DNA of 11,835 bases, from IMG/VR virus record IMGVR_UViG_3300045988_078946; one strand, given 5' to 3'. Both the position numbers and the translations under genes were made by a program. Of this stretch, positions 1-11,835 are shown piece after piece. The stretch comes from a virus. Within the stretch, counting starts at the first letter, position 1. Each line of letters starts with the position of its first letter. A model generated the notes under the pieces. The model had not been told where the DNA came from and made no database searches. It saw nothing but the letters and a program-made list of their open reading frames with translations.

Positions 1-268
1 CATAACACACTTTGGCACGCTTTTTGCTCTGTGCCGCATTTACCATTCTTTAACATATTTAACACTTCATAACACACTTTGGCACGCTTTTTGCTCTGTG
101 CCGCATTTACCATTCTTTAACATATTTAACACTTCATAACACACTTTGGCACGCTTTTTGCTCTGTGCCGCATTTACCATTCTTTAACATATTTAACACT
201 TCATAACACACTTTGGCACGCTTTTTGCTCTGTGCCGCATTTACCATTCTTTAACACATTTAACACAC
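1..268. repeat. Tandem array of four 67-bp direct repeats inside the left ITR
   Basis: The unit cataacacactttggcacgctttttgctctgtgccgcatttaccattctttaacatatttaacactt starts at 1, 68, 135 and 202. Copies 1-3 are identical. Copy 4 has a T>C change at 257 and diverges at 267-268. Each unit contains a short inverted repeat GGCAC-N12-GTGCC (14-18 and 31-35 in copy 1) and phased TAACA motifs. Confidence 0.95.
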
Positions 269-300
269 CGTTAACACTGTTAAACTTTCATAAAAATAAT

Positions 301-378
301 GTTTCACGTGGAACGTTGGTAAATAAATGTTTCACGTGGAACAAAGGGGCAAACAATGAAAACTGTTTCACGTGGAAC
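301..378. promoter_or_regulatory. Cluster of three identical near-palindromic boxes GTTTCACGTGGAAC (candidate operator or origin-protein binding sites)
   Basis: Exact copies at 301-314, 329-342 and 365-378 (centre spacing 28 and 36 bp). Each is preceded by an A-rich tract and (A/C)TG. The core is CACGTG, and the arms are palindromic except for one position (G instead of A) that is the same in all three copies. Confidence 0.7.
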
Positions 379-433
379 AAACAAGTGTTAACAACAGTTA
401 ATTTATTTCTTTAAGACTTTTTAACGAAAATAA

Positions 434-465
434 TTTGGTGGTTTCGCAAAAACGTTGTATCTTTG
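434..465 (+). promoter_or_regulatory. Inward-facing left-arm (early) promoter, Bacteroidota type
   Basis: TTTG at 434-437, a 20-bp spacer, then TATCTTTG at 458-465 (matches the TAnnTTTG -7 element). It lies about 50 nt upstream of the first + strand gene and is repeated in the right ITR and mid-genome with the same architecture. Confidence 0.65.
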
Positions 466-514
466 CACCGTGTTTAAGAAACATATAAGTTTAACAAATT
501 AAATTAGGTAAATT

Positions 515-682
515 ATGAATGAGAATTTTAATGAAACTGTTTTCAACTGTATTACTAGTGTTAACGCTCTTATGACTTCAAACGAAGTCGCAAAAGACGA
601 TAAGGCGGTTATTAAGTTGAACCGCTTTAAGAAGTGGTTGAATGAGTTTGCGGCTGCAAACGGTATGAACGAAGTTAAGTAA
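515..682 (+). CDS. Hypothetical small early protein, 55 aa (below the 60-aa ORF track cut-off)
   Basis: Manual translation from ATG 515 to TAA 680-682 gives MNENFNETVFNCITSVNALMTSNEVAKDDKAVIKLNRFKKWLNEFAAANGMNEVK. It is the first ORF downstream of the ITR promoter and is co-oriented with the operon. The antisense ORFs 499..696 and 578..889 look spurious (F/L/C-rich). Confidence 0.5.
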   Translation: MNENFNETVFNCITSVNALMTSNEVAKDDKAVIKLNRFKKWLNEFAAANGMNEVK

Positions 683-733
683 TAACAGGCGTCCAAAAGA
701 CAACAGAAGTTTAACGTTTAAAGGTTTTAAGTT

Positions 734-1099
734 ATGGCTAAAGGTTTTAGTTTTGCTAGTACTTTTAATAAGACTAGTTTCGGTATTGATACGACCGATT
801 TTCCGTTTGTAAAGTTGACCGATATTTACAACAGTGAGAAAGACGGTGGCGGTGATGTGGTACACCCGATTAACGGTATGTACGTTCACAAATCGCAGTT
901 GGGAGATTCACCTGTAATAATTGACGCAGAAAACAAGCGTTTAGTGAACTTACCACAGTTCACAGGTGACACGGTGCGAGAGATTCTTGCTAATAGTGAA
1001 GCGGTGGACACTATCAAAGCAAACAAAGTTGGTTATACGATTTATGAATATGAATCGCACGCCAAAAAATGTTACGGTATTACCTTTGTAGATAAGTAG
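734..1099 (+). CDS. Hypothetical early protein, 121 aa; possibly a phi29 p5-like ssDNA-binding protein
   Basis: Clean ORF in the early operon, followed by a terminator. Its size and position just upstream of the TP/DNAP pair, plus a weak remembered resemblance of its C-terminal half to phi29 p5 (124 aa), suggest an SSB. This is not verifiable here. Confidence 0.6.
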   Translation: MAKGFSFASTFNKTSFGIDTTDFPFVKLTDIYNSEKDGGGDVVHPINGMYVHKSQLGDSPVIIDAENKRLVNLPQFTGDTVREILANSEAVDTIKANKVGYTIYEYESHAKKCYGITFVDK

Positions 1100-1127
1100 T
1101 TTTCGTAGGTAATGGGTGGATAACGGC

Positions 1128-1174
1128 ACGGGGGTAAACAGTAACTTAGTTTATTGTTGCCCCCGTTTTTGTTT
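1128..1174 (+). terminator. Rho-independent terminator or attenuator after the two small early genes
   Basis: Stem ACGGGGGTAA (1128-1137) pairs with TTGCCCCCGT (1157-1166, one G-U pair). It is followed by TTTTTGTTT. Confidence 0.6.
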
Positions 1175-1194
1175 CATTTAAAAGTGTTGATATT

Positions 1195-1866
1195 ATGGCA
1201 AAGTTAAATCCGATAGGGTTTTCAAAAAGAACGTTTGCAGCAACGGCAAAGATACACGTTGATAAGCAAATATTAGACGCAATAGAATCCCGTGGCTATT
1301 TACGCAAAGAAATCGCCCGTGTGTTTCAACAGGCGAACCGACGCATACAGAATGTGGAAAAATCGGGTTTTGTTTCGCCTGCCGTTGTTGCGTTAAATAA
1401 AGGTGATATTAAAGGATTCACAAAGTTTTCAATGAAACACGATTGGAACGATTTAAAAATTGAATATTCCAAAGCGGTTTCTTTTTTGCAACAACCTACA
1501 TCAACGGCAATTGGTACACGTGAGTATTCAAACCATTTAAAGAAGTCTTACAACTTAGACGATAAAGAATTTAAGTTGATGCAAGACAAATTAATGGGTA
1601 AAATTGCAAGTGTTTCCGATGAAAGATTTTTGGAACAATATTTAATGCAGTACAAAGATTTCACGGGCGAACTAGAACAGGAATCACGGGACGTTAGCGA
1701 CCAAATCGAAGATGATGCGGTTAAAATTGAAAACGCTTTAGATGATGCAATAGAACAAATAGCAAAAGACCCAAATTCAGAGGCTTACGTTAACGGTGTT
1801 AACCATTTCAAAACTGACGAACCTTTGAAAAAGATATTGCAAGAATTTGAAAAATTCGGTTTATAA
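1195..1866 (+). CDS. Candidate terminal protein (TP) for protein-primed replication, 223 aa
   Basis: It lies immediately upstream of the protein-primed DNA polymerase and is translationally coupled to it (TAATG overlap at 1864-1868), as with phi29 genes 3 and 2. It has a basic N-terminal region (ARVFQQANRRIQNVEKSGFV, compare phi29 TP ARLVKNTKAKIARTKKKYGV from memory) and an acidic C-terminal half. The product call is an inference. Confidence 0.6.
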   Translation: MAKLNPIGFSKRTFAATAKIHVDKQILDAIESRGYLRKEIARVFQQANRRIQNVEKSGFVSPAVVALNKGDIKGFTKFSMKHDWNDLKIEYSKAVSFLQQPTSTAIGTREYSNHLKKSYNLDDKEFKLMQDKLMGKIASVSDERFLEQYLMQYKDFTGELEQESRDVSDQIEDDAVKIENALDDAIEQIAKDPNSEAYVNGVNHFKTDEPLKKILQEFEKFGL

Positions 1867-4073
1867 TGAAGAAAATACCCTTTGAACTACATACAGAAGT
1901 TTATACGCCAAAAGATATTGCAAAGGTTTTATCTTTGGCGGTGAACGATAAGAATTTTACAGGAAACAATAAGGGCGAAAAGTTCTTAAACGTTCCTGTA
2001 TCTTTCGATATTGAAACTACATCATTTTACCGTGATGAAGACGGGGAAACATACAGTTACGAACGCTATATGAAATTAGGTGGAAAAGAAACCAAAATGG
2101 AAAAGTGTTCTTTAATGTATGTTTGGCAATTTGGAATAAACGGTTTTTGCATAATTGGGCGTACGTGGGACGAATTTTTGCAAATGTTATCCGAAATAGT
2201 GGATATATTGGAACTTTGCCCAAAGAAACGTATTATTATTTACGTTCACAATTTGGCTTATGAGTTCCAATTTTTCCGTGAGTTGTTGGAATGGGAAAAA
2301 GTTTTCTCTATTGATTTACGCAAACCAATTTACGGAATAACGAAAACAGGTTTAGAGTTCCGATGCAGTTACTTATTATCGGGTTATTCTTTGGCGAAAT
2401 TAGGCGAACAATTACACACATACAAATGTGAAAAGTTAGTTGGCGATTTGGATTATAGTTTGTTACGTCACAGTAAAACCCCGTTGTCACAAAAAGAAAT
2501 TGGTTACTGTCTGAATGATATAAAAGTGGTGATGTGTTACATACAGGAACTATTGGAACGTTACAAAGGAATAACCCGTTTGCCGATTACAAAGACGGGT
2601 TTTGTACGCAAATATTGCCGTTCTGTATGCTTTAAAACAACTGACGAAACAGGCAAAACGATTCCAAACTTTAAATATATTGATAAGATTCATAACTTAA
2701 ATATAACAGGTATGGAAGAATTTGCAATGTTACAACGGGCGTTTTCAGGTGGCTTTACGCACGCCAACGCAAAATACACCGATGAAGTAATTGAGAATGT
2801 AGATAGTTACGATTTTACTAGCAGTTACCCTTATGTTATGGTTTCAGAAAAGTTTCCAATGAGTACGGGCGTAATTGTACCGATAAAGTCAATGAAACAA
2901 TTTGAGTTTATGACTAGCAAATTTTGTTGTGTTTTTGATGTGGAGATAACAAACATATTTGCAAAATCAGAAAACGAAAATCCAATATCGGTTAGTAAAT
3001 GTTTCGTGAAAGAAAACGTTTCCGAGAATAACGGGCGATTGGTTTGCGCAAAGAAAATATGTATGACGATTACCGAAATAGATTACAAAGTGTTTTCACA
3101 GTTTTACACGTGGGAACAAATAAGAATCGGGCGAATGATTTGTTACAGAAAAGAATATTTGCCAACTGAGTTTGTAGAATCTATTTTGCACCTGTATGAG
3201 ATGAAAACAAAACTAAAGGGTGTAAAGGGTAAAGAAGTGGAGTATTTGAATAGCAAAGAAATGCTTAATAGTTGTTACGGTATGTGTGTTACAAATCCGT
3301 TGCGTGATGAAATTTTGTGCGATGGCGAAACGTGGGACGTTGAACACCTTACAGGCGAAAAACAATTAGAAATGCTTAATAAATACAATGATAGTAAAAA
3401 CCGCTTTTTGTTTTACCCGTGGGGTATTTATGTTACCGCCTATGCACGAAGAAACCTGTTTACGGGTATTTCTGAATGTGGGGACGATTACATATATAGT
3501 GATACCGATTCCGTTAAAATTATGAATGGTAATGCACACAAAGACTATTTCAAAGCCTACAACGATTTAGCGCAACAAAAATTACGTGCCGCCTGTAAGT
3601 TTCACAAAATACCCTTTGAAAAGGTTGAACCCGTCACAATAAAGGGAATCTCAAAACCGTTGGGTGTTTGGGATTACGAGGGACGTTACGTCAGGTTTAA
3701 AACTTTAGGCGCAAAACGCTATATGGTGGAAGAAGAAAACGCCCTAACAGTAAACGGCAAAGATTATAATTATTCAATGACCGTTTCGGGCGTTAACAAA
3801 AAATCCGCTATCCCTTATATGTTAGAAACGTTTGGAGAAAGTGGAATCTTTGACGCATTTACAAATTATCTAGATATTCCACCATCGGCAACAGGTAAGA
3901 ATATTCATACATATATTGATTATAAACAAACGGGAACAATAAAAGACTATAGGGGCAACGTTTCAAGTTACGATACGACAACGGGGGTACACTTAGAACC
4001 AACTGGGTACACTTTAAGTCTTTCAGTTCTTTATATAAATTATTTAATGGGAATCAGATTAAAGAAAGAATAA
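1866..4073 (+). CDS. Protein-primed family B DNA polymerase (phi29 gp2-like), 735 aa
   Basis: All canonical motifs are readable. ExoI is FDIETTS, ExoII is VHNLAYEFQF and ExoIII is YCLNDIKVV. Motif A is DFTSSYPYVM, motif B is KEMLNSCYGMCV, motif C is IYSDTDSVK and the KxY motif is GAKRYMV. The genome has ITRs consistent with protein priming. Confidence 0.95.
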   Translation: MKKIPFELHTEVYTPKDIAKVLSLAVNDKNFTGNNKGEKFLNVPVSFDIETTSFYRDEDGETYSYERYMKLGGKETKMEKCSLMYVWQFGINGFCIIGRTWDEFLQMLSEIVDILELCPKKRIIIYVHNLAYEFQFFRELLEWEKVFSIDLRKPIYGITKTGLEFRCSYLLSGYSLAKLGEQLHTYKCEKLVGDLDYSLLRHSKTPLSQKEIGYCLNDIKVVMCYIQELLERYKGITRLPITKTGFVRKYCRSVCFKTTDETGKTIPNFKYIDKIHNLNITGMEEFAMLQRAFSGGFTHANAKYTDEVIENVDSYDFTSSYPYVMVSEKFPMSTGVIVPIKSMKQFEFMTSKFCCVFDVEITNIFAKSENENPISVSKCFVKENVSENNGRLVCAKKICMTITEIDYKVFSQFYTWEQIRIGRMICYRKEYLPTEFVESILHLYEMKTKLKGVKGKEVEYLNSKEMLNSCYGMCVTNPLRDEILCDGETWDVEHLTGEKQLEMLNKYNDSKNRFLFYPWGIYVTAYARRNLFTGISECGDDYIYSDTDSVKIMNGNAHKDYFKAYNDLAQQKLRAACKFHKIPFEKVEPVTIKGISKPLGVWDYEGRYVRFKTLGAKRYMVEEENALTVNGKDYNYSMTVSGVNKKSAIPYMLETFGESGIFDAFTNYLDIPPSATGKNIHTYIDYKQTGTIKDYRGNVSSYDTTTGVHLEPTGYTLSLSVLYINYLMGIRLKKE

Positions 4074-4074
4074 T

Positions 4075-5214
4075 ATGAGACAGAAGAAAGAAAAGGTAGA
4101 AACACCGAAATTTTACACGTTGAATCGCATTTTATCAAAGAATGCCGATTACAATGTAATTTTCGGTGAACGTTCCAACGGTAAGACCTATGCAACGTTA
4201 CTGTATGGAATCAAAGAATATTTGCGCACAGGAAAACAAATGGCTTATATTCGTAGATGGCGTGAAGATTTAAGGGGCAAACGTGCCGAAAGTTTATTCA
4301 GTAATCACGTTGCAAACGGTGTGATACAGGAATTAACAGGCGGTAAGTTTAACGAAGTGTTTTACATTTCGGGTAAATGGTTTCTTTCGTCTTACGACCC
4401 CGAAACCAAAAAACGTGTACCCGATAACACACCGTTCTGTTTCGGGTTTTGTCTTTCAGAACAGGAACACGAAAAATCTAGCAGTTACCCAAACATAACT
4501 ACAATAGTTTTCGACGAGTTCCTAACTAGACGTTACTATTTGCCCGATGAATTTATGTTATATATGAACCTATTGAGTACAATTATCAGACAGAGAAACG
4601 ATGTTAAAGTTTTTATGTTAGGTAATACAGTGAATCAATTTTGCCCGTATTTCTCAGAAATGGGATTGAAACAGGTGCGAATGATGGAACAGGGAACTAT
4701 TGATATTTACCGTTTCGGTGAGCACGGGGCAACGGTTGCAGTAGAATATTGCAGTACGATTGTTAAACATAAGGCTAGCAACAAATACTTTTGTTTTGAC
4801 AATGAAAATTTGCAAATGATTACGGGCGGTAAATGGGAACTTGCAGCATATCCGCACCTACCTGTAAAATACAAACCGAATGACGTGTTATTTGTCTTCT
4901 ATATTCAGTTTAACGAAATTACCTTACAGGGCAACGTAATACAGATTGAGGACAAAGAAAACGGGGTGAATAACTTTATTTATATCCACAACAAAACAAC
5001 CCCGATAAAGGACACAGACAACAGTTTGATATATTCTTTGCAAATGAACGGCAAACCAAACTACAAACGAAAGTTGCTGAGTACTGCAACCTATCTAGAA
5101 TCACAGATAACTAGATATTTTGCAACCGATAAGGTATTTTATCAAAATAACGAAATTGGCGAAATTGTGCGCAATTACTTGATGACAAGTGCAAGAAGTA
5201 ACATTATTACTTAA
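4075..5214 (+). CDS. DNA encapsidation (packaging) ATPase, phi29 gp16-like, 379 aa
   Basis: Walker A is GERSNGKT. YIRRWRED matches phi29 YVRRYKPE. SSSYPNITTIVFDEF (Walker B) matches phi29 SNAYPNVSTIVFDEF, and LGNTVNQFCPYF matches phi29 LSNAVSVVNPYF (phi29 sequence recalled from memory). Confidence 0.9.
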   Translation: MRQKKEKVETPKFYTLNRILSKNADYNVIFGERSNGKTYATLLYGIKEYLRTGKQMAYIRRWREDLRGKRAESLFSNHVANGVIQELTGGKFNEVFYISGKWFLSSYDPETKKRVPDNTPFCFGFCLSEQEHEKSSSYPNITTIVFDEFLTRRYYLPDEFMLYMNLLSTIIRQRNDVKVFMLGNTVNQFCPYFSEMGLKQVRMMEQGTIDIYRFGEHGATVAVEYCSTIVKHKASNKYFCFDNENLQMITGGKWELAAYPHLPVKYKPNDVLFVFYIQFNEITLQGNVIQIEDKENGVNNFIYIHNKTTPIKDTDNSLIYSLQMNGKPNYKRKLLSTATYLESQITRYFATDKVFYQNNEIGEIVRNYLMTSARSNIIT

Positions 5215-5223
5215 TATCTGTTA

Positions 5224-5272
5224 ACGGGGGTTAAAAATGTTTCACGTGAAACACTTTTCCCCCGTTTTATTT
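5224..5272 (+). terminator. Rho-independent terminator of the left (early) operon; its stem contains the CACGTG palindrome
   Basis: ACGGGGG (5224-5230) pairs with CCCCCGT (5259-5265). The inner stem is formed by AAAATGTTTCAC/GTGAAACACTTTT. It is followed by TTTTATTT and sits 10 nt after the ATPase stop. Confidence 0.75.
5238..5253. promoter_or_regulatory. Perfect 16-bp palindrome TGTTTCACGTGAAACA (candidate high-affinity operator for the same factor as the ITR boxes)
   Basis: The sequence is its own reverse complement. It differs from the ITR boxes only at the position that breaks their symmetry (A here, G there). It lies 16 bp upstream of the -33 TTTG of the late promoter. Confidence 0.7.
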
Positions 5273-5301
5273 GGTGATACCAAATAATTTTCCTATCTTT
5301 G
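5270..5301 (+). promoter_or_regulatory. Late (structural operon) promoter, Bacteroidota type
   Basis: TTTG at 5270-5273, a 20-bp spacer, then TATCTTTG at 5294-5301. It shares the TTTGGTG...TATCTTTGCA architecture and spacer length with the two ITR promoters. Confidence 0.65.
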
Positions 5302-5333
5302 CAGCATCAAATAACAAAATTAAAATTTGCTAT

Positions 5334-5528
5334 ATGGACGTAAACGCAATTATATCATTAATTAGTAACGTTGGTTTTCCTGTTGCGGTTTGTGTCGCCC
5401 TTTTCTTCTATATGGAGAAACAGAACGAACGCCATCAAAACGAAACCGACAAGTTAAATGAAACCGTACAAAGTAACACTAAAGTGTTGACAGAACTTTG
5501 TACATTAATTAAAACTCTTGTTAAATAA
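5334..5528 (+). CDS. Small single-TM membrane protein, YvrJ-like, 64 aa; holin candidate
   Basis: Translation from ATG 5334 gives MDVNAIISLISNVGFPVAVCVALFFYMEKQNE..., one hydrophobic helix followed by a charged helical tail. The ISNVGFP(V/I)AV motif resembles the YvrJ family (from memory). The track ORF start at 5271 is rejected because it overlaps the promoter. The stop overlaps the portal start (TAATG). Confidence 0.7.
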   Translation: MDVNAIISLISNVGFPVAVCVALFFYMEKQNERHQNETDKLNETVQSNTKVLTELCTLIKTLVK

Positions 5529-6595
5529 TGGAGAAAGAAAACTTATATAATAGGTATCAAACAGAAGTTAAAAACAAAGATTCTGCATTATTCACATTTA
5601 TGCAACGTGTTCTTTGTATGACTTCAAAGATGTTTGAGTACACGGGTACACCCGAAACAATGCCCCCTGTAGAACTTGAAAAGATTCTGCAAACATCGGG
5701 TAACGTTGGTATCGCAAAAGTAAACGGGGGACTGTATGCTTTACAGGGTACACGGGGCGGTGAATGTGATGCGTATTATCACGGCAAAGATTACGTGGTT
5801 GCGAACCCGTGGTTAAATTTGAACAAAACGTTTAAAATCGATTCCGATATTGTCATTATCAACAATACACCGTTTGCAGATTCACTTTTGCCAATAATCG
5901 GCAAATATGGTGTACTTTACACCGATGCGACAATAACACTTAATTTGGCTAGCATTTTAACACGTATCACTATGTTAATTTCTGCTAGTGACGATAAAAC
6001 CAAACAAAGCGCAGAATCTTTCTTGCAGAAGATTTTAAACGGTGATTTCTCAGTAATCGGTGAAAATGCCTTTTTCAAAGGTGTTAACTTACAAACACCA
6101 CCGACACAGGGAAACCAACAAATAGGGCAATTAATTGAACTTTTGCAGTACTATAAGGCTTCAATGTTCAACGATTTAGGTTTGAATGCAAACTATAATA
6201 TGAAACGTGAACGATTGAACACGCAAGAGGTTTCAATGAATATAGACGCTTTAATGCCGTTCGTTGATTCAATGTTAACAGAACGTGTCGAGGGTGTGAA
6301 ACGTGTTAACGAAATGTTTGGTACGGATATTACGGTAACGTTGGGGTCTAGTTGGAAGATTGAGCACGAAAATTATTTGTCGTTACTCAAAGCCACAGAA
6401 GAGGGACACGAACACACCGAAACGGAAGACGTTGACTCAGTAAAGGAAAACGAAACAGAAGAAACGCAAGAAACAGAAGAAACAGAAACAGAAACAGAAG
6501 AAACAGAAGAAACAGAAGAAACGGAAACAGAAACAGAAGAAAATGAAGAAACAGAAGAAACAGAAGAAAAAGAAGAGAAAGAAGATGAAAATTAA
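5528..6595 (+). CDS. Portal / head-tail connector protein, phi29 gp10-like, 355 aa, with an acidic E/T-repeat C-terminal tail
   Basis: [30 protein letters not shown] matches phi29 gp10 [50 protein letters not shown] matches [36 protein letters not shown] matches CEKINELYGLNVKVKF (phi29 sequence from memory). Confidence 0.9.
   Translation: [355 protein letters not shown]
6446..6592. repeat. Purine-rich coding microsatellite (GAAACA / GAAGAAACA units) at the 3' end of the portal gene
   Basis: gaaacagaagaaacgcaagaaacagaagaaacagaaacagaaacagaagaaacagaagaaacagaagaaacggaaacagaaacagaagaaaatgaagaaacagaagaaacagaagaaaaagaagagaaagaagatgaaaat. It translates as [47 protein letters not shown]. Confidence 0.9.
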
Positions 6596-7154
6596 CGAAC
6601 TTTTCACGGGTGAAAATGGTTTGTTTGAAAAAATCTTTGCGCCCCTGTTTCCTGTTTTGTACAAATCAATTTTCGGGGACGATGAACCGAAAGTAATTGA
6701 TATTGATTTACGTTTCAAATATGGAAACAGAACTCTAGTTGATGCAGTCACAAACGAAACTGCAACCGATATTGTTAAAAGCATTATCACGGTGAAGTTT
6801 GATGAATGGCAAAAACAGATTCAAGTGTTTAATAATGAATATGATGTGTTGAACCCTGTAACGTCAAAGACAACGGAAACAACAAATAATACCGTTGACG
6901 AAACAGGCAATAACAACACCATCGATTCAAGTGTAACTTTTAATGATGGAGATTTTGGCAATGACACAAAGCAGCAAAGAGATTCCACAGGAAACCGACA
7001 AGAAACGGGCACGAAAACAGTTGTTAGAAACGGTGTTCCATCTAGCGTTCCTACTAGCGAAATTATTCAAAAAGAAATGAATCTCAGAAAAACCAACTTT
7101 AAAACACAGGTGGTAACAGAGATTGTAAAAGAAATTAGTTTAGATATTTATTAA
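6585..7154 (+). CDS. Virion structural protein of unknown role, 190 aa (203 aa if started at 6543); lower collar/adaptor or scaffold candidate
   Basis: The ORF lies between the portal and major capsid genes. ATG 6585 overlaps the portal stop by 11 nt. The upstream ATG 6543 would add MKKQKKQKKKKRKK, read from the portal repeat in another frame. The central T/N/S/G-rich segment (about aa 90-165) flanked by helical ends could form a long beta-hairpin like the phi29 gp11 tube, but that is speculative. Confidence 0.75.
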   Translation: MKINELFTGENGLFEKIFAPLFPVLYKSIFGDDEPKVIDIDLRFKYGNRTLVDAVTNETATDIVKSIITVKFDEWQKQIQVFNNEYDVLNPVTSKTTETTNNTVDETGNNNTIDSSVTFNDGDFGNDTKQQRDSTGNRQETGTKTVVRNGVPSSVPTSEIIQKEMNLRKTNFKTQVVTEIVKEISLDIY

Positions 7155-7173: not shown

Positions 7174-8358
7174 ATGGAAGTAAAGCAAATTTATACGCTT
7201 ATTAATAGCGTTTCATCTGAGGTTTTGGGTAAAACCGATTTGGTACACGAAGACCTCACAGGTATCGTTGATTTGGGTAATGAGGTATTTAATCAGAATG
7301 CCGTTGACAATTACGTTAAATCACTTGTAAACCATATCGGTAAGGTGGTTTTCGTGAACCGTCCATATTCGGGTAAAGTTCCATCTATCCTTATGGATGC
7401 GTGGGAATTTGGTAGCGTATTGGAGAAAATCAGCGCAGATGTTCCACAGGCTGAAGAAAACGATACCTGGAATCTCACAGACGGTAAAGAGTACAAACAG
7501 GACGTGTTCCACAAACCAACGGTTTCTGCTAAGTTCTTCAACTCAAAGGTGACTTTTGAAGTTCCTGTATCTATCACAGAAAGACAGGTAAAGGAATCTT
7601 TCAGCAGCTCAGAACAATTGAACGGTTTCCTGTCAATGATTTATTCAGCAGTTGAAAAGTCAATGACTATCAAGACCGATGCGCTTGTTATGCGTACTAT
7701 TAACAATATGATTGCGGAAACTTTGGACGCAGACAAGACATCTTTTGGTTTCGTACCGTCAACACACGAAAAAGTTGACTATGCGAGTGCATCAACAGTT
7801 CGTTGTGTGAACCTGTTGAAACTTTACAACGAAAAGACGGGTGCGGCTTTGACTGCAAACGTAGCAGTAACAACCCCAGACTTTATTCGTTTCGCTGCAT
7901 ATATGATGGGTTTGTATGCAGACAGATTGCAGACAATTTCAACCCTGTTTAACGTTGGCGGTAAGGAACGTTTCACACCGAAAGACGTTTTGCATACCGT
8001 TCTGTTGTCCGATTTCGCAACAGCAGCAAAGACATACCTATATGCCGACACGTTCCATAATGAGAACGTTTTGTTACCACAGGCGGAAACCGTGGCAAGT
8101 TGGCAGGCAACGGGCAAAGATTACGCTTTTGACAACGTTTCAAAGATTGATGTAAAATCTGCTAGCGGTGCAAACGTTTCCATCGGTGGCGTATTGGGTG
8201 TTATGTTTGACCGTGACGCTTTAGGTGTTACCAATTTGGATAAGCGAGTAACGACCAACTACAACGCCAAAGCAGAATTTTTCAACAATTACTTCAAATT
8301 CGATGCCGGCTACTTCAACGACACAAACGAAAACTTTGTTGTGTTCTTTGTCGCCTAA
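7174..8358 (+). CDS. Major capsid protein, phi29 gp8-like (HK97 fold), 394 aa
   Basis: Its N-terminal region AVDNYVKSLVNHIGKVVFVNRP...GSVLEKISADV parallels phi29 gp8 [21 protein letters not shown]...GRTIEEIYTDI (from memory). It is the largest late ORF after the portal and is followed by a strong terminator, as is typical of highly expressed capsid genes. Confidence 0.85.
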   Translation: MEVKQIYTLINSVSSEVLGKTDLVHEDLTGIVDLGNEVFNQNAVDNYVKSLVNHIGKVVFVNRPYSGKVPSILMDAWEFGSVLEKISADVPQAEENDTWNLTDGKEYKQDVFHKPTVSAKFFNSKVTFEVPVSITERQVKESFSSSEQLNGFLSMIYSAVEKSMTIKTDALVMRTINNMIAETLDADKTSFGFVPSTHEKVDYASASTVRCVNLLKLYNEKTGAALTANVAVTTPDFIRFAAYMMGLYADRLQTISTLFNVGGKERFTPKDVLHTVLLSDFATAAKTYLYADTFHNENVLLPQAETVASWQATGKDYAFDNVSKIDVKSASGANVSIGGVLGVMFDRDALGVTNLDKRVTTNYNAKAEFFNNYFKFDAGYFNDTNENFVVFFVA

Positions 8359-8376: not shown

Positions 8377-8421
8377 GGGGTGTGTTTCCTGTAGTTGATA
8401 GAACAGGGGCACACCCTTTTT
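8377..8421 (+). terminator. Rho-independent terminator after the capsid gene
   Basis: GGGTGTG (8378-8384) pairs with CACACCC (8410-8416), with an inner stem CCTGT/ACAGG, followed by TTTTT (8417-8421). Confidence 0.75.
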
Positions 8422-8434
8422 AACTTTTTGCGGT

Positions 8435-8878
8435 ATGATTAAAATTAAAACTTTCGTTTACAACGGCAAACCAAACGAAGTAAACAAGACTTTACAGGCA
8501 AACGAAGAGTACACGGGCGTATTGAATGCAACGTTTAATGTTTTAACGCCTGTTGTACGTTTCAGAACTCGCACGCCTGTAACTTTCAATTACGTTTACA
8601 TCGAAAGTTTGAACCGTTATTATTTTGTTTCTGAGAAACAACAAGACGGTGATATTTGCACAGTTCGTTTGCGTGTTGACGTTCTGTTTACTTATAAGGA
8701 TATTATCTTAAACAGTACTGCAACGTTAACAAAAAGTGAAAACGGTAACAAATATCTTTCAAACCGTACAAACGTGGTGGACGTTCGCCCGAATATCAGA
8801 AAACTAGATTTTCCGAATAAAGGGTTGTTGAACGAAACAGGTAGTATTATTATGGTAACTATTAAAGGTAACGTTTAA
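8435..8878 (+). CDS. Tail protein resembling the N-terminal domain of the phi29 gp9 tail knob, 147 aa
   Basis: FNYVYIESLNRYYFVSEKQQDGDICTVRLRVDVLFTY parallels phi29 gp9 [43 protein letters not shown] (from memory). It sits directly upstream of the large tail gene. Confidence 0.7.
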   Translation: MIKIKTFVYNGKPNEVNKTLQANEEYTGVLNATFNVLTPVVRFRTRTPVTFNYVYIESLNRYYFVSEKQQDGDICTVRLRVDVLFTYKDIILNSTATLTKSENGNKYLSNRTNVVDVRPNIRKLDFPNKGLLNETGSIIMVTIKGNV

Positions 8879-8880
8879 TT

Positions 8881-10413
8881 ATGGCAAATTTATTAACTTA
8901 CGATACATCGGATTTTACGGGTGACGTTACAATTACCGACAAACAGGGAACGGACGCACACCATTTTATTGTAACAGTAACGGGAAACGGTGACGGTACG
9001 TTTACCGATTTAAAAGCTAGTTATCAAAATTGGGACGGTGATTGGGTTGCAGATACCCCGTTTAACGTTTCGGGCAACGTTGGTACACTCACGGTTTATT
9101 GCTCTAGAGGTGACGAAATTTCTATAACAGGTAAATTTATTTCGGGTGTAAAGGAACTGCAAATAACTAACAATATCACAAACACAACTGCAAAAGCTGA
9201 TGCAAGTGAAACAAATTACACCGTAACCGTTACAGGAACAGCACAGGGAATGTTTAACGGAACGCCTACAATAACATATGGTGGCGAAACTTACGAAATG
9301 ACCGTAATAAACCAAACTGCAACAATTATTGTGCCTATTGCAACCGAATCGGTTATTATAAACGGTGAATATTTGTTAGGTGATTTTATTGAAGTTGATT
9401 ACAGTTTAACAAATTGTGAAATTGTTGGTGATAAGCCCGTAAAGGTAAAAACGGGGCAAAGTTACACGTTTAATTTCAAAGCGAACACGAATGCAGAATT
9501 AACAGAGATACAGGCAAATTTCATAAACGATTCGGGCGACACTATTATAAGTAACGGCACGATTTCGGAAAATAAGCAAACGGGCACAGTAACGATTAAT
9601 TTAACATCGGGTGCGTCACAGTTTACAGTTTATGCAAATGCCGATGTAGTGCAACCGCCAACGATTAAAAATTACGGTGCAATAAATGTTTATATTGTTA
9701 CGTTGGAAAATTTGGACGAATTTTCAAAGAAACGTTTCTTTAAACCAACGGGCGAAAATGACACGGGCACAACTTATTCTGAGGTTAATTTGGGTACTTA
9801 TGTAAACCGTATCAAAAGAATATTTGCAACCGTTCCTGTAGGCGGTGACGATGTTTTGAAATGCGGTAACCACAACACGGGGATAAATGTTAAATATCCC
9901 GATAGTGATGTTATGTTACTAGATTTCGGCAACGTTGAACTAACAGGGGCAAACGGTAACAATGAAGACTTTAACGCACAGATACAAATGTTTATCCCAT
10001 GCCGTGGCGTTGTTTCTATTGATAGTAATTACATCGGAAAAACGGTTAATTTGTCTATCAAAGTTAACGTGATTACAGGTGATGCAGTGGCTTTGCTGTC
10101 GTGCGATGGTGTAACGTTCCAAATTGAAAGTTTTTCTTTGTCACGTGATGTTATTTACCGTTTGGGCACAGATTTAAACGTTGTTGGCGGTGAACAATGG
10201 AACGAACAAATTTTGTACGGTTTAGAACCTTACGTTTTGATTACTGAAAATTTAACCGTAAACGTTCCTGTTAACAACACACAGGAAAACGTGACAGTTA
10301 AAGACGTTACAGGGTTTGCACAGTTTGAAAACGTGAATTTGAACGCTGCAAATTTGTTGGTTGACGAGTACAACGATATTATAAATCAGTTGGAAACAGG
10401 CGTTTATTTATAA
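8881..10413 (+). CDS. Tail knob / receptor-binding tail protein, 510 aa; three N-terminal beta-sandwich-like repeats plus a gp9-like C-terminal domain
   Basis: The N-terminal ~255 aa contain three ~80-aa T/N/G-rich modules with recurring signatures (FIVTVTGNGDGTF, YTVTVTGTAQGMF, TGTVTINLTSGASQF). In the C-terminal half, IQMFIPCRGVVSIDSNYIGKTVNLSIKVNVITGDA resembles phi29 gp9 [40 protein letters not shown] (from memory). It is the last gene of the late operon. Confidence 0.75.
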   Translation: MANLLTYDTSDFTGDVTITDKQGTDAHHFIVTVTGNGDGTFTDLKASYQNWDGDWVADTPFNVSGNVGTLTVYCSRGDEISITGKFISGVKELQITNNITNTTAKADASETNYTVTVTGTAQGMFNGTPTITYGGETYEMTVINQTATIIVPIATESVIINGEYLLGDFIEVDYSLTNCEIVGDKPVKVKTGQSYTFNFKANTNAELTEIQANFINDSGDTIISNGTISENKQTGTVTINLTSGASQFTVYANADVVQPPTIKNYGAINVYIVTLENLDEFSKKRFFKPTGENDTGTTYSEVNLGTYVNRIKRIFATVPVGGDDVLKCGNHNTGINVKYPDSDVMLLDFGNVELTGANGNNEDFNAQIQMFIPCRGVVSIDSNYIGKTVNLSIKVNVITGDAVALLSCDGVTFQIESFSLSRDVIYRLGTDLNVVGGEQWNEQILYGLEPYVLITENLTVNVPVNNTQENVTVKDVTGFAQFENVNLNAANLLVDEYNDIINQLETGVYL

Positions 10414-10420
10414 AAGAAAT

Positions 10421-10442
10421 AGGCGGTAAATTGTTACCGCCT
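10421..10442. terminator. Bidirectional rho-independent terminator between the convergent late and right-arm operons
   Basis: AGGCGGTAA (10421-10429) pairs with TTACCGCCT (10434-10442) around a 4-nt loop. The + strand has T-rich GTTTTCTTATTTTTT downstream, and the - strand transcript has T-rich ATTTCTTTT downstream. Confidence 0.8.
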
Positions 10443-10448
10443 GTTTTC

Positions 10449-10697
10449 TTATTTTTTATTAGTAAATTCGTAGGCTAGATTTTTGCTATAAATAAAATCC
10501 AAAGCACGGTTTTTCTTTGCCGTTTCTTCATCAAGTTTGCACGAAATAGTTTTTATTACTAAGGTTTGCGCCTTTAGTGTATCAATAACAGAATTTAATA
10601 ACATACCGTTTGTACCTGTTGTGTTTTCTGCTATGTACTGCAAATTTACTGTTGAAACTTTAATTGACTTCAACAAAATTTTTATTGCTTTATCCAT
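10449..10697 (-). CDS. Hypothetical protein, 82 aa, predicted mostly helical, no TM segment
   Basis: The ORF starts 2 nt after the endolysin stop and is the last gene before the bidirectional terminator. I recognise no motif. Confidence 0.6.
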   Translation of the reverse strand: MDKAIKILLKSIKVSTVNLQYIAENTTGTNGMLLNSVIDTLKAQTLVIKTISCKLDEETAKKNRALDFIYSKNLAYEFTNKK

Positions 10698-10699
10698 AA

Positions 10700-11125
10700 C
10701 TATTTCTTTTCCAAATTCATTATAATTTGGTTACGGGGTTTACCGTTACGTGGACAAACTGAAACGTGAAACCAAAATGAGTTCGTGAAACCTTTGCGGT
10801 GTTCTTTAATAAGTTGGTCGAAACCGCCTGTTTCTCTCAGAACCTTTTCTAAAGATTCCATATCAGCACAAACCAAATCAGCGGCTAAACCTTTTTGGTG
10901 TTGACTGTTAACAACACCCCCAACTGCTTTATTTAACATCGGGCAACGATACCCACTACTAACTAAGATAGGTTTACCCAACTTTGCACGAATGCCGTCT
11001 AAATAATCAGCCAAACGATTCAAGTTGTCAACTATTTCAAACGTTGGTGTATTATCAATGCCCAAACGTTTTGCGGTTGCTGAGTTGATGAACTCGGACA
11101 ATTTAAAATACTTAATTCTTTTCAT
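10700..11125 (-). CDS. Endolysin, Peptidase_M15_3 (zinc D-Ala-D-Ala carboxypeptidase-like / L-Ala-D-Glu peptidase fold), 141 aa
   Basis: Family signature FKLSEFINSATAKRLGIDNTP...SSGYRCPMLNKAVGGVVNSQHQKGLAADL with the H-x6-D zinc ligands, plus a distal His in FWFHVS. There is no signal peptide or TM segment. Confidence 0.88.
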   Translation of the reverse strand: MKRIKYFKLSEFINSATAKRLGIDNTPTFEIVDNLNRLADYLDGIRAKLGKPILVSSGYRCPMLNKAVGGVVNSQHQKGLAADLVCADMESLEKVLRETGGFDQLIKEHRKGFTNSFWFHVSVCPRNGKPRNQIIMNLEKK

Positions 11126-11130
11126 ATCAC

Positions 11131-11334
11131 TTATTTATTTTCTTTTGGTGTAATAATAAACCACTTGCGAGAATCTTTGTGCGTTGGAAAACGCCCCTTT
11201 ACAGTTATTGAACAATCGCCCTGTAAGTAATCAATCTTATTATTAAAGAACTCGCTTACTTTGTCAGAACGTACCATAAAAACCGTAACTTTGTCGTCTT
11301 GTTTTAATGTGATTCTAAAATATGAATGTTCCAT
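11131..11334 (-). CDS. Hypothetical protein, 67 aa, first gene of the right-arm operon
   Basis: It is the first ORF downstream of the right ITR promoter (leader about 30 nt) and lies 5 nt upstream of the endolysin gene. I recognise no motif. Confidence 0.6.
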   Translation of the reverse strand: MEHSYFRITLKQDDKVTVFMVRSDKVSEFFNNKIDYLQGDCSITVKGRFPTHKDSRKWFIITPKENK

Positions 11335-11370
11335 AATCTTTATAATTTAATTGTTTCTTAATTTCTGCTG

Positions 11371-11402
11371 CAAAGATATAACGTTTTTGCGAAACCACCA
11401 AA
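11371..11402 (-). promoter_or_regulatory. Inward-facing right-arm promoter (ITR copy of the left early promoter)
   Basis: On the - strand: TTTG (11399-11402), a 20-bp spacer, then TATCTTTG (11371-11378). It differs from the left copy only at the base just 5' of the -7 element (11379). Confidence 0.65.
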
Positions 11403-11457
11403 TTATTTTCGTTAAAAAGTCTTAAAGAAATAAATTAACTGTTGTTAACACTTGTTT

Positions 11458-11535
11458 GTTCCACGTGAAACAGTTTTCATTGTTTGCCCCTTTGTTCCAC
11501 GTGAAACATTTATTTACCAACGTTCCACGTGAAAC
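11458..11535. promoter_or_regulatory. Mirror cluster of three GTTCCACGTGAAAC boxes in the right ITR
   Basis: Exact copies at 11458-11471, 11494-11507 and 11522-11535, which are the reverse complements of the left ITR boxes. Confidence 0.7.
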
Positions 11536-11567
11536 ATTATTTTTATGAAAGTTTAACAGTGTTAACG

Positions 11568-11835
11568 GTGTGTTAAATGTGTTAAAGAATGGTAAATGCG
11601 GCACAGAGCAAAAAGCGTGCCAAAGTGTGTTATGAAGTGTTAAATATGTTAAAGAATGGTAAATGCGGCACAGAGCAAAAAGCGTGCCAAAGTGTGTTAT
11701 GAAGTGTTAAATATGTTAAAGAATGGTAAATGCGGCACAGAGCAAAAAGCGTGCCAAAGTGTGTTATGAAGTGTTAAATATGTTAAAGAATGGTAAATGC
11801 GGCACAGAGCAAAAAGCGTGCCAAAGTGTGTTATG
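11568..11835. repeat. Tandem array of four 67-bp direct repeats inside the right ITR (mirror of 1-268)
   Basis: Reverse complement of the left array, read directly in lines 11581-11835. Confidence 0.95.

What the first reader, a model, noticed from the sequence alone, without database searches (positions are those of the whole stretch)
434..465. Bacteroidota-type promoters and SD-less genes in a phi29-like phage
- All three predicted promoters (434-465, 5270-5301 and 11371-11402 on the - strand) are TTTG-N20-TATCTTTG. This matches the established Bacteroides/Flavobacterium sigma-A consensus (-33 TTTG, -7 TAnnTTTG), not the -35/-10 TTGACA/TATAAT form.
- Essentially no gene has a Shine-Dalgarno sequence. 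Upstream regions are simply A/T-rich, another Bacteroidota hallmark.
- phi29-like protein-primed podophages are classically known from Bacillota (and Mycoplasma). A Bacteroidota-infecting lineage would extend the host range of this virus type to a diderm phylum.
- It would also raise questions about how a gp9-like tail knob crosses an outer membrane.
Basis: partly seen in the sequence, partly recalled or inferred. Interest (0 to 1): 0.65.

Follow-up and report, generated by a model that had tools for sequence, protein, structure and literature searches.

The report
Gut mini-phage with Bacteroidota expression signals
This is a complete 11.8-kb phi29-like, protein-primed phage genome whose promoters and translation start sites look like those of Bacteroidota, so it very probably infects a gut Bacteroidota bacterium; however, its closest cultured relatives already infect Gram-negative bacteria, so it is a new host phylum for a known phage group, not a first crossing to diderm hosts.

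Summary
TTTG-N20-TATCTTTG occurs exactly three times (434, 5270, 11371-11402 on the minus strand). Two copies are the same sequence inside the 467-bp inverted terminal repeat, so there are two independent sites.

Each site is intergenic, points at the first gene of an operon and lies 28-45 nt upstream of the start codon. All three positions keep the motif in 80 close relatives while the spacer varies.

No gene has a Shine-Dalgarno sequence. Mean anti-SD pairing is -1.3 kcal/mol, equal to background, against -7.0 and -7.1 in the cultured relatives Salmonella phage Astrid and Acinetobacter phage Phanie. Start codons instead carry TTAAA near -16 and A at -3, as in Bacteroides phage B40-8.

Across 38 MAG-borne relatives, lack of SD and the promoter motif co-occur and mark one monophyletic sub-clade in the capsid-protein tree. 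The endolysin's best matches among cultured phages are Bacteroides fragilis phages.

The host inference is well supported, with no direct host link. The novelty premise is outdated. The window is collinear with Astrithrvirus-type phi29-like phages of Salmonella, Acinetobacter, Pectobacterium and Vibrio, and a 2024 review already proposed a Bacteroidales-infecting phi29-like genome. This is a new member of a known kind.

The parts
1..467 (.). Left inverted terminal repeat. It holds 4 tandem 67-bp repeats (1-268), three copies of TGTTTCACGTGGAACA (300-379), and the left promoter at its inner edge.
   Evidence: I1: arms 1-467 / 11369-11835; D2, D9
434..465 (+). Left promoter, Bacteroidota type. 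-33 TTTG at 434-437, 20-nt spacer, -7 TATCTTTG at 458-465. The start site is predicted near 470 and drives 515-5214 (early/replication block).
   Evidence: consensus from PMC7366714, PMC6847099; -7 box at -12..-5 per PMC9723704
515..682 (+). 55-aa early protein, function unknown.
   Evidence: no family
734..1099 (+). 121-aa early protein, function unknown.
   Evidence: no family
1128..1166 (+). Terminator-like hairpin followed by a U-tract, between gene 2 and the replication genes. Probably partial termination.
   Evidence: -23 kcal/mol, z -2.8
1195..1866 (+). 223-aa candidate terminal protein. It lies directly upstream of, and overlaps, the DNAP start. It is homologous to Astrid ORF002.
   Evidence: E 7e-9; synteny; no HMM hit
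1866..4073 (+). Protein-primed family-B DNA polymerase.
   Evidence: PF03175, 9.9e-15; phrog_1907, 5e-70
4075..5214 (+). gp16-type DNA encapsidation ATPase.
   Evidence: PF05894, 1.5e-23
5223..5266 (+). Terminator hairpin closing the left operon. It encloses the perfect palindrome TGTTTCACGTGAAACA (5238-5253).
   Evidence: -20.6 kcal/mol, z -3.6
5270..5301 (+). Middle promoter, Bacteroidota type. TTTG-N20-TATCTTTG, with the start site predicted near 5306. It drives the holin, connector, MCP and tail-knob block.
   Evidence: found in 79 of the 81 sequences examined: the window and 80 relatives; spacer variable
5334..5528 (+). 64-aa single-TM holin-like protein.
   Evidence: phrog_4898 holin, 1.6e-8
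5528..6595 (+). Upper collar / connector (portal), with a Glu/Thr-rich repetitive C-terminal tail.
   Evidence: PF05352; (D1 repeats 6430-6608)
6585..7154 (+). 189-aa protein between connector and MCP. It may be the lower collar or a scaffold. The start may instead be 6543.
   Evidence: synteny with Astrid ORF007; PMC11476376
7174..8358 (+). Phi29-type major capsid protein.
   Evidence: PF25622, 2.2e-53
8377..8417 (+). Terminator-like hairpin after the MCP gene.
   Evidence: -22.1 kcal/mol, z -2.8
8435..8878 (+). 147-aa homologue of Phanie gp9, the N-terminal part of a split tail knob.
   Evidence: E 1e-8, same length; PMC11476376
8881..10413 (+). 510-aa distal tail protein. Its C-terminal ~170 aa align weakly, end to end, with the C-terminus of Phanie gp10.
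   Evidence: E 0.12; DU_PP_III, 2e-5
10414..10450 (.). Bidirectional terminator between the convergent operons.
   Evidence: z -6.2 and -6.0
10449..10697 (-). 82-aa protein, function unknown.
10700..11125 (-). Single-domain Peptidase_M15_3 endolysin. Best matches among cultured phages are Bacteroides fragilis siphophages.
   Evidence: PF08291, 3.8e-21; phrog_894
11131..11334 (-). 67-aa protein, function unknown. It is the first gene of the right operon.
11371..11402 (-). Right promoter, the ITR copy of the left one. The start site is predicted near 11366 and drives 11334-10449.
11369..11835 (.). Right inverted terminal repeat.

Best explanation
The window is a complete-looking linear genome of an uncultured, virulent, protein-primed mini-podophage of the Astrithrvirus-like branch of phi29-like phages. 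It encodes no RNA polymerase or sigma factor, so all transcription must use the host holoenzyme.

The three TTTG-N20-TA(T)CTTTG elements are its promoters, of the kind recognised by the Bacteroidota primary sigma factor (sigma-ABfr). One sits at the inner edge of each terminal repeat. These fire inward into the replication/packaging block (left) and the endolysin block (right). One sits mid-genome, just after a terminator, and fires into the holin, connector, capsid and tail-knob block.

Translation uses the SD-independent, A-rich initiation mode of Bacteroidota. The host is therefore most likely a gut Bacteroidota bacterium; genus is unresolved.

The lineage arose by a single shift from SD-using hosts, with promoters and ribosome-binding regions rewritten genome-wide.

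Shown: motif presence, position and conservation; absence of SD; A-rich signature; co-variation with phylogeny; homologies. Inferred: that the motifs fire in vivo, the start sites, and the identity of the host.
For: 1. Motif and placement. The consensus is as published in PMC7366714, PMC6847099 and PMC2483708. A spacing range of 17-23 is quoted in bioRxiv 10.1101/172254.
2. Phylogenetic footprint. The -33 and -7 boxes are invariant and the spacer varies, at all three positions in about 80 relatives. More divergent clade members (L085-L089, L115) also carry TAnnTTTG boxes in sense orientation upstream of gene blocks. In this clade TAnnTTTG is enriched in intergenic DNA (OR 1.76, p 0.012). In SD-using relatives it is not (OR 1.0).
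3. No SD, against strong SD in Astrid and Phanie at similar G+C.
4. TTAAA at about -16 and A at -14..-12 and -3. This matches the Bacteroidetes initiation signature of PMC6847099.
5. Controls. Bacteroides fragilis phage B40-8 shows the same three signals: SD energy -1.02, A frequency 0.65 at -14..-12, and 1.8 promoter motifs per 10 kb, with four of the five same-strand hits intergenic. Cyanophage P-SSP7 does not: -3.07, 0.27-0.35 and 0.2 per 10 kb.
6. Co-variation. Among 38 MAG-borne relatives the two signals fall into two classes. All eight SD-less contigs longer than 10 kb carry 1-4 promoter motifs. The SD-less fragments L087, L088 and L118 carry none. Only 2 of the 26 SD-using contigs carry any (L091 one, L095 two), and L106 is intermediate.
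7. Phylogeny. The SD-less genomes form one clade nested among SD-using ones in an MCP tree.
8. Endolysin. Its best hits among 50,697 phage records are Bacteroides fragilis phages B40-8, B124-14 and Barc2635, at 47-50% identity and E about 1e-27.
9. No sigma-70-type enrichment.
10. Sample. A contig encoding the identical MCP is held by ENA. Its record name suggests a human gut metagenome.
Against: - No direct host link exists: no CRISPR spacer match, no prophage copy, no isolate, no tRNA.
- The two closest MAG-borne relatives were binned into Melainabacteria / Gastranaerophilales genomes. Only one SD-less relative was binned with Prevotella.
- The endolysin margin over Achromobacter phage enzymes is small: about 49% against 46% identity.
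- Promoter spacing is N20 throughout the clade. B40-8 intergenic promoters use N19, and from memory 19 bp was optimal for Flavobacterium ompA. N20 is within the published range but not the optimum.
- With only two independent sites, the count is weak statistically.
- Start sites are predicted, not mapped.
Confidence: 0.8

Rival explanations
1. The host is a gut Gastranaerophilales (Melainabacteria / Vampirovibrionia) bacterium. The cyanobacterial lineage is also SD-poor, and the promoter-like motif would be recognised by its sigma factor or mean something else.
For: The two nearest MAG-borne relatives (93% and 92% MCP identity) sit in two independently produced Melainabacteria / Gastranaerophilales bins. 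Low SD use is known in Cyanobacteria (background knowledge). The cyanophage control is SD-poorer than the proteobacterial phages.
Against: - Both contigs are whole stand-alone phage genomes with no host flank, so the assignment rests on binning alone.
- Bin labels are demonstrably unreliable in this family. SD-rich relatives sit in 'Bacteroidales' and 'Phocaeicola' bins. SD-less ones sit in Christensenellaceae, Acutalibacteraceae, Staphylococcaceae, Tissierella and Prevotella bins.
- The cyanophage control lacks both the TAnnTTTG promoters and the A-rich -12..-14 signature.
- TAnnTTTG is documented for Bacteroidota and not for cyanobacterial sigma factors. Even the related Chlorobi differ in the -7 box.
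- Melainabacterial promoters could not be examined here.
Confidence: 0.06
2. The conserved TTTGGT...TATCTTTG elements are not host-sigma promoters. They would be binding sites for a phage protein (replication, packaging or regulation) or structural parts of the terminal repeat.
For: Two of the three copies lie inside the ITR, where replication-origin functions are expected. The family does carry another conserved element, the GTTTCACGTGAAAC palindrome, near the same places.
Against: - The third copy is mid-genome, outside any repeat, directly after a terminator and before an operon.
- A bipartite architecture with a variable 20-nt spacer is what a sigma factor reads.
- The phage has no RNA polymerase, so it needs host promoters at exactly these three places, and no sigma-70-type alternative is present.
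- The motif co-varies with loss of SD, a translation signal unrelated to DNA-binding phage proteins.
Confidence: 0.05
3. The host is a Pseudomonadota or Bacillota bacterium, like the cultured or binned relatives. The missing SD and the motif would be compositional accidents of an A+T-rich genome.
For: All cultured relatives infect Gammaproteobacteria. Many MAG-borne relatives are in Clostridia bins. G+C is low at 36.8%.
Against: Astrid (39.8% G+C) and Phanie (37.4%) have the same composition yet strong SDs and no Bacteroidota-type promoters. SD-using relatives span 29-54% G+C. The SD-less state is clade-specific.
Confidence: 0.04

Closest known systems
Astrithrvirus and allies: Salmonella phages Astrid/astrithr/assan, Acinetobacter phage Phanie, Pectobacterium phage DU_PP_III, Enterobacter Entb_47, Vibrio K58 g2
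   Same: - Genome of about 11-12 kb with terminal repeats.
- Identical gene order: small early genes, TP-like gene, DNAP, gp16 ATPase, small TM protein, connector, ~190-aa protein, MCP, 147-aa knob-N, large knob-C, and a short leftward block at the right end.
- MCP identity 56-59%, DNAP identity 41-46%.
- Homologous TP-like and knob-N proteins.
   Different: - Those phages use SD sequences and lack TAnnTTTG promoters.
- Their hosts are Gammaproteobacteria.
- They carry a CHAP/amidase lysin after the knob genes. The window instead has an M15 peptidase on the minus strand.
- Their ITR is far shorter: 83 bp in Astrid against 467 bp here.
- Nucleotide similarity covers only 7-16% of the query at 66-71%. 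This is not the same genus.
Bacillus phage phi29 and Salasmaviridae
   Same: Protein-primed family-B DNAP, gp16-type ATPase, connector and Phi29-type MCP all match their Pfam families. The genome is linear with inverted terminal repeats. Host-RNAP-dependent transcription runs from terminal and central promoters.
   Different: The genome is about 40% smaller. No pRNA match was found in Rfam. The tail knob is split, and no appendage or head-fibre genes were detected. The promoters are not sigma-A -35/-10 type. The genes lack SD.
Bacteriophage sp. isolate 2692_55609 (cluster 30 of Evseev et al. 2024, PMC11476376)
   Same: A ~12-kb phi29-like metagenomic genome from human faeces, proposed to infect Bacteroidales.
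   Different: It is a different lineage. No record of its stated length (12,148 bp) is among the 23 MCP matches (E up to 1e-5) in the phage collection. The review places it next to Amedibacillus phages. The window's clade is nearest Astrithrvirus. The review's host proposal rests on protein homology, not on expression signals.
Bacteroides fragilis siphophages B40-8 / B124-14 / Barc2635
   Same: Same expression grammar: TTTG-N19-TAnnTTTG intergenic promoters, no SD, and A-rich -12..-14. The M15 endolysin is homologous at 47-50% identity.
   Different: They are unrelated 45-48-kb siphoviruses with terminase-based packaging. Their promoter spacing is N19, not N20.

Membership tests
phi29-like protein-primed podophages | Family-B, protein-primed-type DNA polymerase (PF03175) | tested here: met
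   54.8 bits against a cut-off of 25.8; phrog_1907, 5e-70
phi29-like protein-primed podophages | gp16-type encapsidation ATPase, gp10-type connector and Phi29-type MCP | tested here: met
   PF05894 84.2 bits, PF05352 55.9 bits, PF25622 182.2 bits, all above their cut-offs
phi29-like protein-primed podophages | Linear genome with inverted terminal repeats | tested here: met
   arms 1-467 / 11369-11835 with one mismatch. True termini and repeat copy number depend on the assembly.
phi29-like protein-primed podophages | Terminal protein gene next to the DNAP gene | tested here: inconclusive
   The 223-aa gene at 1195-1866 overlaps the DNAP start and is homologous to Astrid ORF002. It has no Pfam or PHROG hit. 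Covalent linkage is not testable here.
phi29-like protein-primed podophages | Packaging RNA (pRNA) | tested here: not met
   The Rfam scan at E up to 1 found no pRNA family. A divergent pRNA cannot be excluded.
phi29-like protein-primed podophages | gp9-type tail knob | tested here: inconclusive
   The link is indirect only. 8435-8878 is homologous to Phanie gp9. The C-terminus of 8881-10413 aligns weakly to Phanie gp10. There are no PDB sequence hits. Structures were not predicted.
Genus Astrithrvirus | Genus-level nucleotide similarity to Astrithrvirus astrithr (ICTV practice is about 70% over the genome; recalled from background knowledge) | tested here: not met
   only 7-16% of the first 8 kb aligns, at 66-71% identity
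Astrithrvirus-like group (family-level) | Shared gene order and clearly homologous core proteins | tested here: met
Bacteroidota sigma-ABfr promoter | -7 box TAnnTTTG and -33 box TTTG | tested here: met
   consensus from PMC7366714 and PMC6847099
Bacteroidota sigma-ABfr promoter | Spacing within the reported range | tested here: met
   N20 here. The quoted range is 17-23. B40-8 intergenic promoters use N19.
Bacteroidota sigma-ABfr promoter | Placed upstream of transcription units and evolutionarily conserved | tested here: met
Bacteroidota sigma-ABfr promoter | Transcription starts about 5-7 nt downstream and depends on a Bacteroidota holoenzyme | not testable with these tools
   Needs 5'-end mapping or a reporter / in-vitro transcription assay.
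Bacteroidota-type SD-independent translation initiation | No SD complementarity upstream of start codons | tested here: met
   window -1.30, equal to background; Astrid -7.02; Phanie -7.12
Bacteroidota-type SD-independent translation initiation | Adenine enrichment at -3 and around -11 to -15 | tested here: met
   control phages; criterion from PMC6847099 and PMC7366714
Bacteroidota-type SD-independent translation initiation | Depletion of extra AUG near start codons | not tested
   Too few genes (14) for a meaningful test.

The most novel reading that the evidence does not exclude
This is a very widespread, uncultured human-gut clade of protein-primed mini-podophages that entered Bacteroidota once, from SD-using hosts, by rewriting every promoter and ribosome-binding region. 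Like its relative Phanie, it may not cross the outer membrane by itself and may instead dock onto the tail of a helper phage. That would make it a tail-hijacking satellite-like phage of gut Bacteroidota.
Probability: 0.15. Interest if true: 0.75.

Novelty: new member of a known kind. Interest (0 to 1): 0.42.

Why it matters
- No cultured phi29-like phage of Bacteroidota appears among the 50,697 phage records searched. Yet this clade is common: 360 matching stretches in IMG/VR, and more than 1,500 protein clusters related to its endolysin in public assemblies, the 120 best-scoring of them 86-94% identical.
- A confident host phylum tells people what to plate faecal filtrates on. It would add a 12-kb, protein-primed, easily engineered phage chassis for Bacteroides or Prevotella.
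- The family is a clean natural experiment. Closely related, collinear genomes differ in whether they use SD and sigma-70 signals or Bacteroidota signals. Expression grammar can therefore serve as a host-phylum marker where MAG binning misleads.
- It does not overturn any view of phi29-like biology, because Gram-negative hosts were already known.

Tried and rejected
- MAG bin labels as host evidence. Rejected because labels contradict the sequence signals in both directions and every contig is a stand-alone phage genome.
- Large-database search with the endolysin to find cellular homologues. The 120 proteins listed were 86-94% identical to the query and mostly on contigs of 12 kb or less, so no host information came of it.
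- Tail protein against cultured phages. Only a weak DU_PP_III hit.
- PDB sequence searches for the knob proteins and MCP. Nothing.
- Rfam and tRNA scan. Nothing.
- Sigma-70 scan. At or below chance in both the window and Astrid, so uninformative beyond showing no enrichment.
- Literature search for IMG dataset 3300045988. Nothing found, so its ecosystem is not documented here.
- Literature searches for a described Bacteroidota phi29-like isolate. Only the 2024 review's metagenomic suggestion.
- CRISPR-spacer matching. Not feasible: collection scans take one exact pattern and were capped.
- Structure prediction of the knob proteins. Not run, because it is peripheral to the finding and would have needed another capped database search to build an alignment.

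Full report
**What the window is.** The 11,835-bp window looks like a whole linear phage genome.
- It has a 467-bp inverted terminal repeat, 1-467 and 11369-11835, with one mismatch.
- It carries 14 tightly packed genes.
- Pfam matches above the curated cut-offs identify four core proteins (PHROGs agrees): a protein-primed-type family-B DNA polymerase (1866-4073, PF03175), a gp16-type encapsidation ATPase (4075-5214), a gp10-type connector (5528-6595) and a Phi29-type major capsid protein (7174-8358).
- Other assignments are a holin-like 64-aa membrane protein (5334-5528) and a single-domain Peptidase_M15_3 endolysin on the minus strand (10700-11125).
- No tRNA or Rfam family, including pRNA, was found.

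**Checking the motif.** TTTG-N20-TATCTTTG occurs exactly at the three stated places, against 0.01 expected. Two corrections are needed.
- The sites at 434 and 11371 are the same ITR sequence. There are two independent sites.
- That pattern was derived from the sites themselves. With the literature consensus TTTG-N19-21-TAnnTTTG, shuffles give 0.62 +/- 0.69 hits. The -7 box alone is not enriched: 25 against 19.7. The count is not what carries the argument.

**Position and conservation carry the argument.**
- All three sites lie in the roughly 12% of the genome that is non-coding, and each points at the first gene of a block.
- If the -7 box spans -12 to -5, as in Flavobacterium (PMC9723704), the 5' UTRs would be about 45, 28 and 32 nt.
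- The ITR ends 2 nt after the -7 box. Both ends therefore carry one promoter that drives different genes.
- The middle promoter begins in the U-tract of a hairpin terminator that closes the left operon. Three more terminator-like hairpins fall in the other intergenic gaps.
- In 80 IMG/VR relatives with 88-95% MCP identity, all three positions keep TTTGGT and TA(T/A/C)CTTTG at N20 spacing, while spacer bases vary.
- More distant members of the same clade (67-78% MCP identity) also have TAnnTTTG boxes, of different sequence, upstream of their gene blocks.
- In this clade the box is enriched in intergenic DNA (OR 1.76, p 0.012). In SD-using relatives it is not (OR 1.0).

**Checking the SD claim.**
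- Pairing energy between -20..-4 and the 16S 3' tail averages -1.30 kcal/mol over the 14 genes. Random genome positions give -1.43. No gene reaches -4.5.
- The cultured relatives Astrid (39.8% G+C) and Phanie (37.4%) give -7.02 and -7.12. The absence is real and not compositional.
- The upstream regions are more structured than 'A/T-rich'. Nine of 14 genes have TTAAA, in seven of them starting at -16 or -17. A occupies -14..-12 in 10-11 of 14 genes and -3 in 9 of 14. None of 5000 random samples reached nine TTAAA hits.
- This is the initiation signature described for Bacteroidetes: A at -3, -6 and -11 to -15 (PMC6847099, PMC7366714). It is also close to the TAAAA motif reported for Flavobacterium (PMC2483708).

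**Relatives change the interpretation.**
- tblastn against 50,697 phage records shows the nearest cultured phages. They are Salmonella phages Astrid/astrithr/assan (genus Astrithrvirus), Acinetobacter phage Phanie, Pectobacterium DU_PP_III, Enterobacter Entb_47, a Shigella phage and Vibrio K58 g2. MCP identity is 56-59% and DNAP identity 41-46%.
- Gene order is the same. The TP-position protein and the 147-aa knob-N protein are homologous.
- phi29-like phages of diderm hosts are therefore already cultured. A 2024 review lists them and proposes a Bacteroidales host for a different metagenomic phi29-like genome (PMC11476376).
- The same review reports that Phanie is infectious only after binding the contractile tail of a helper myophage. 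It also reports that these phages have a split tail knob.

**Host evidence: MAG bins are unreliable.** A scan of species-representative genomes found 38 MAG contigs carrying MCP relatives. The bin labels are scattered. The two closest are in Melainabacteria / Gastranaerophilales bins. Others are in Prevotella, Phocaeicola, Bacteroidales and many Clostridia bins. All the long ones are stand-alone phage-sized contigs.

**Host evidence: the sequence signals separate cleanly**.
- The window, L083-L089, L115 and L117 have no SD (means +0.8 to -1.6). All eight of these contigs longer than 10 kb carry 1-4 Bacteroidota-type promoter motifs. The fragments L087 and L088 carry none.
- Nearly all the others have strong SDs (means about -5 to -11) and no such motif. 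This includes the contigs in 'Bacteroidales' and 'Phocaeicola' bins. The exceptions are one motif match in L091 and two in L095. L106 is intermediate, and L118 is a 1.7-kb SD-less fragment.
- In a neighbour-joining MCP tree the SD-less genomes form a single clade nested among SD-using ones.
- Two mechanistically unrelated signals, one read by sigma and one by the ribosome, thus changed together once. That is what a host-phylum shift predicts.

**Host evidence: controls support the reading**.
- Bacteroides fragilis phage B40-8 (39% G+C) shows SD energy -1.02, A frequency 0.65 at -14..-12 and 0.61 at -3, and 1.8 promoter motifs per 10 kb, with four of the five same-strand hits intergenic.
- Cyanophage P-SSP7 shows -3.07, 0.27-0.35 and 0.2 per 10 kb.

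**Host evidence: the endolysin.** The window's endolysin is absent from the Astrithrvirus relatives, which carry a CHAP or amidase enzyme instead. Its best matches among cultured phages are B. fragilis siphophages, at 47-50% identity and E about 1e-27. Achromobacter phages come next at about 45%.

**How it most likely works.** The phage has no polymerase or sigma factor, so the host holoenzyme must read these promoters. That constrains the host to one whose primary sigma recognises TTTG/TAnnTTTG, the Bacteroidota sigma-ABfr type. E. coli-type and Bacteroidota promoters are reported not to work across the two groups (PMC6847099).
- The ITR promoters would fire inward. The left one drives the small early genes, the TP-like gene, the DNAP and the ATPase, with a partial terminator at 1128-1166. 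The right one drives the 67-aa protein, the endolysin and the 82-aa protein.
- The middle promoter would drive the holin, connector, MCP and, past a hairpin at 8377-8417, the knob genes.
- Translation would start by the SD-independent, A-rich mode.
- These steps are inferred. Nothing here maps a transcript.

**Remaining doubts.**
- There is no direct host link.
- The Gastranaerophilales bins are the one observation that points elsewhere, and I could not examine promoters of that group.
- Spacing is N20, whereas B40-8 uses N19.
- The endolysin margin is small.
- I put the Bacteroidota host at about 0.8.

**Novelty.**
- The phage type, its occurrence in diderm hosts, and the idea of Bacteroidales-infecting phi29-like phages are all published.
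- I did not find this particular clade described. It is Astrithrvirus-like, monophyletic, SD-less and very common.
- Its abundance is shown by 360 matching stretches in IMG/VR and by more than 1,500 endolysin-related protein clusters, some with more than 1,000 member sequences.
- I also did not find the use of co-varying expression signals to assign its host.
- A contig encoding the identical MCP is held by ENA. Its record name suggests a human gut metagenome, but I did not verify the sample.
- I rate this a new member of a known kind, of moderate interest.

Noticed in passing
window 300-315, 328-343, 364-379, 5238-5253, and mirror copies 11457-11536: A 16-bp palindrome, TGTTTCACGTG(G/A)AACA, occurs three times in each ITR. 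A perfect copy sits inside the terminator hairpin just upstream of the middle promoter. The same element occurs in ITRs or mid-genome of relatives, including SD-using ones (L093, L098, L099, L100, L113), and up to 14 times in L115. It is absent from Astrid and Phanie. It is probably the operator of a phage-encoded DNA-binding protein. The mid-genome copy is centred about 61 nt upstream of the predicted start site.
   Followed up: partly
window 1-268 and 11568-11835: Four tandem copies of a 67-bp unit form the extreme termini inside an unusually long 467-bp ITR (Astrid's is 83 bp). Copy number and the true ends may be affected by assembly.
   Followed up: no
window, about -16 upstream of the starts at 515, 734, 1195, 4075, 5334, 5528, 7174, 8881, 11334: A recurrent TTAAA pentamer lies upstream of 9 of 14 start codons, starting at -16/-17 in seven of them, at -14 for 5334 and at -19 for 8881. 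This goes beyond simple A-richness. It could be a defined SD-independent ribosome-recruitment element.
   Followed up: partly
window 6430-6595: The connector gene ends in a Glu/Thr-rich low-complexity tail encoded by 9-nt repeats (GAAACAGAA-like). The next gene's start overlaps it, and its start is ambiguous (6543 or 6585).
   Followed up: no
window 10700-11125 (-) compared with L001 9709-10164 and L002 10350-10964: Lysis-module replacement. Astrid and Phanie carry a CHAP/amidase gene after the knob genes on the plus strand. The window lacks it and instead has an M15 peptidase in the right-end leftward operon, most similar to Bacteroides phage endolysins. No spanin candidate was recognised.
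   Followed up: partly
L083-L120 (MAG contigs): Whole phage genomes of this family are binned into MAGs of at least eight phyla or classes: Melainabacteria, Elusimicrobia, Omnitrophota, Clostridia, Bacteroidales and others. The labels contradict the contigs' own SD and promoter signals. This shows that bin taxonomy is not host evidence for such contigs.
   Followed up: yes
L123 (Bacteroides phage B40-8) compared with the window: All four intergenic consensus promoters of B40-8 have 19-nt spacers. The window's clade uses 20 nt almost invariably (254 of 367 motif hits in relatives). This may reflect a different host genus or tuned promoter strength.
   Followed up: no
window 8405-8434: The tail-knob gene at 8435 has only about 17 nt between the terminator U-tract and its ATG (TTTTTAACTTTTTGCGGTATG). 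Relatives L085 and L086 have a proper TAACTTTG box about 50 nt upstream of the homologous gene. Expression here may rely on terminator read-through or a near-leaderless start.
   Followed up: no
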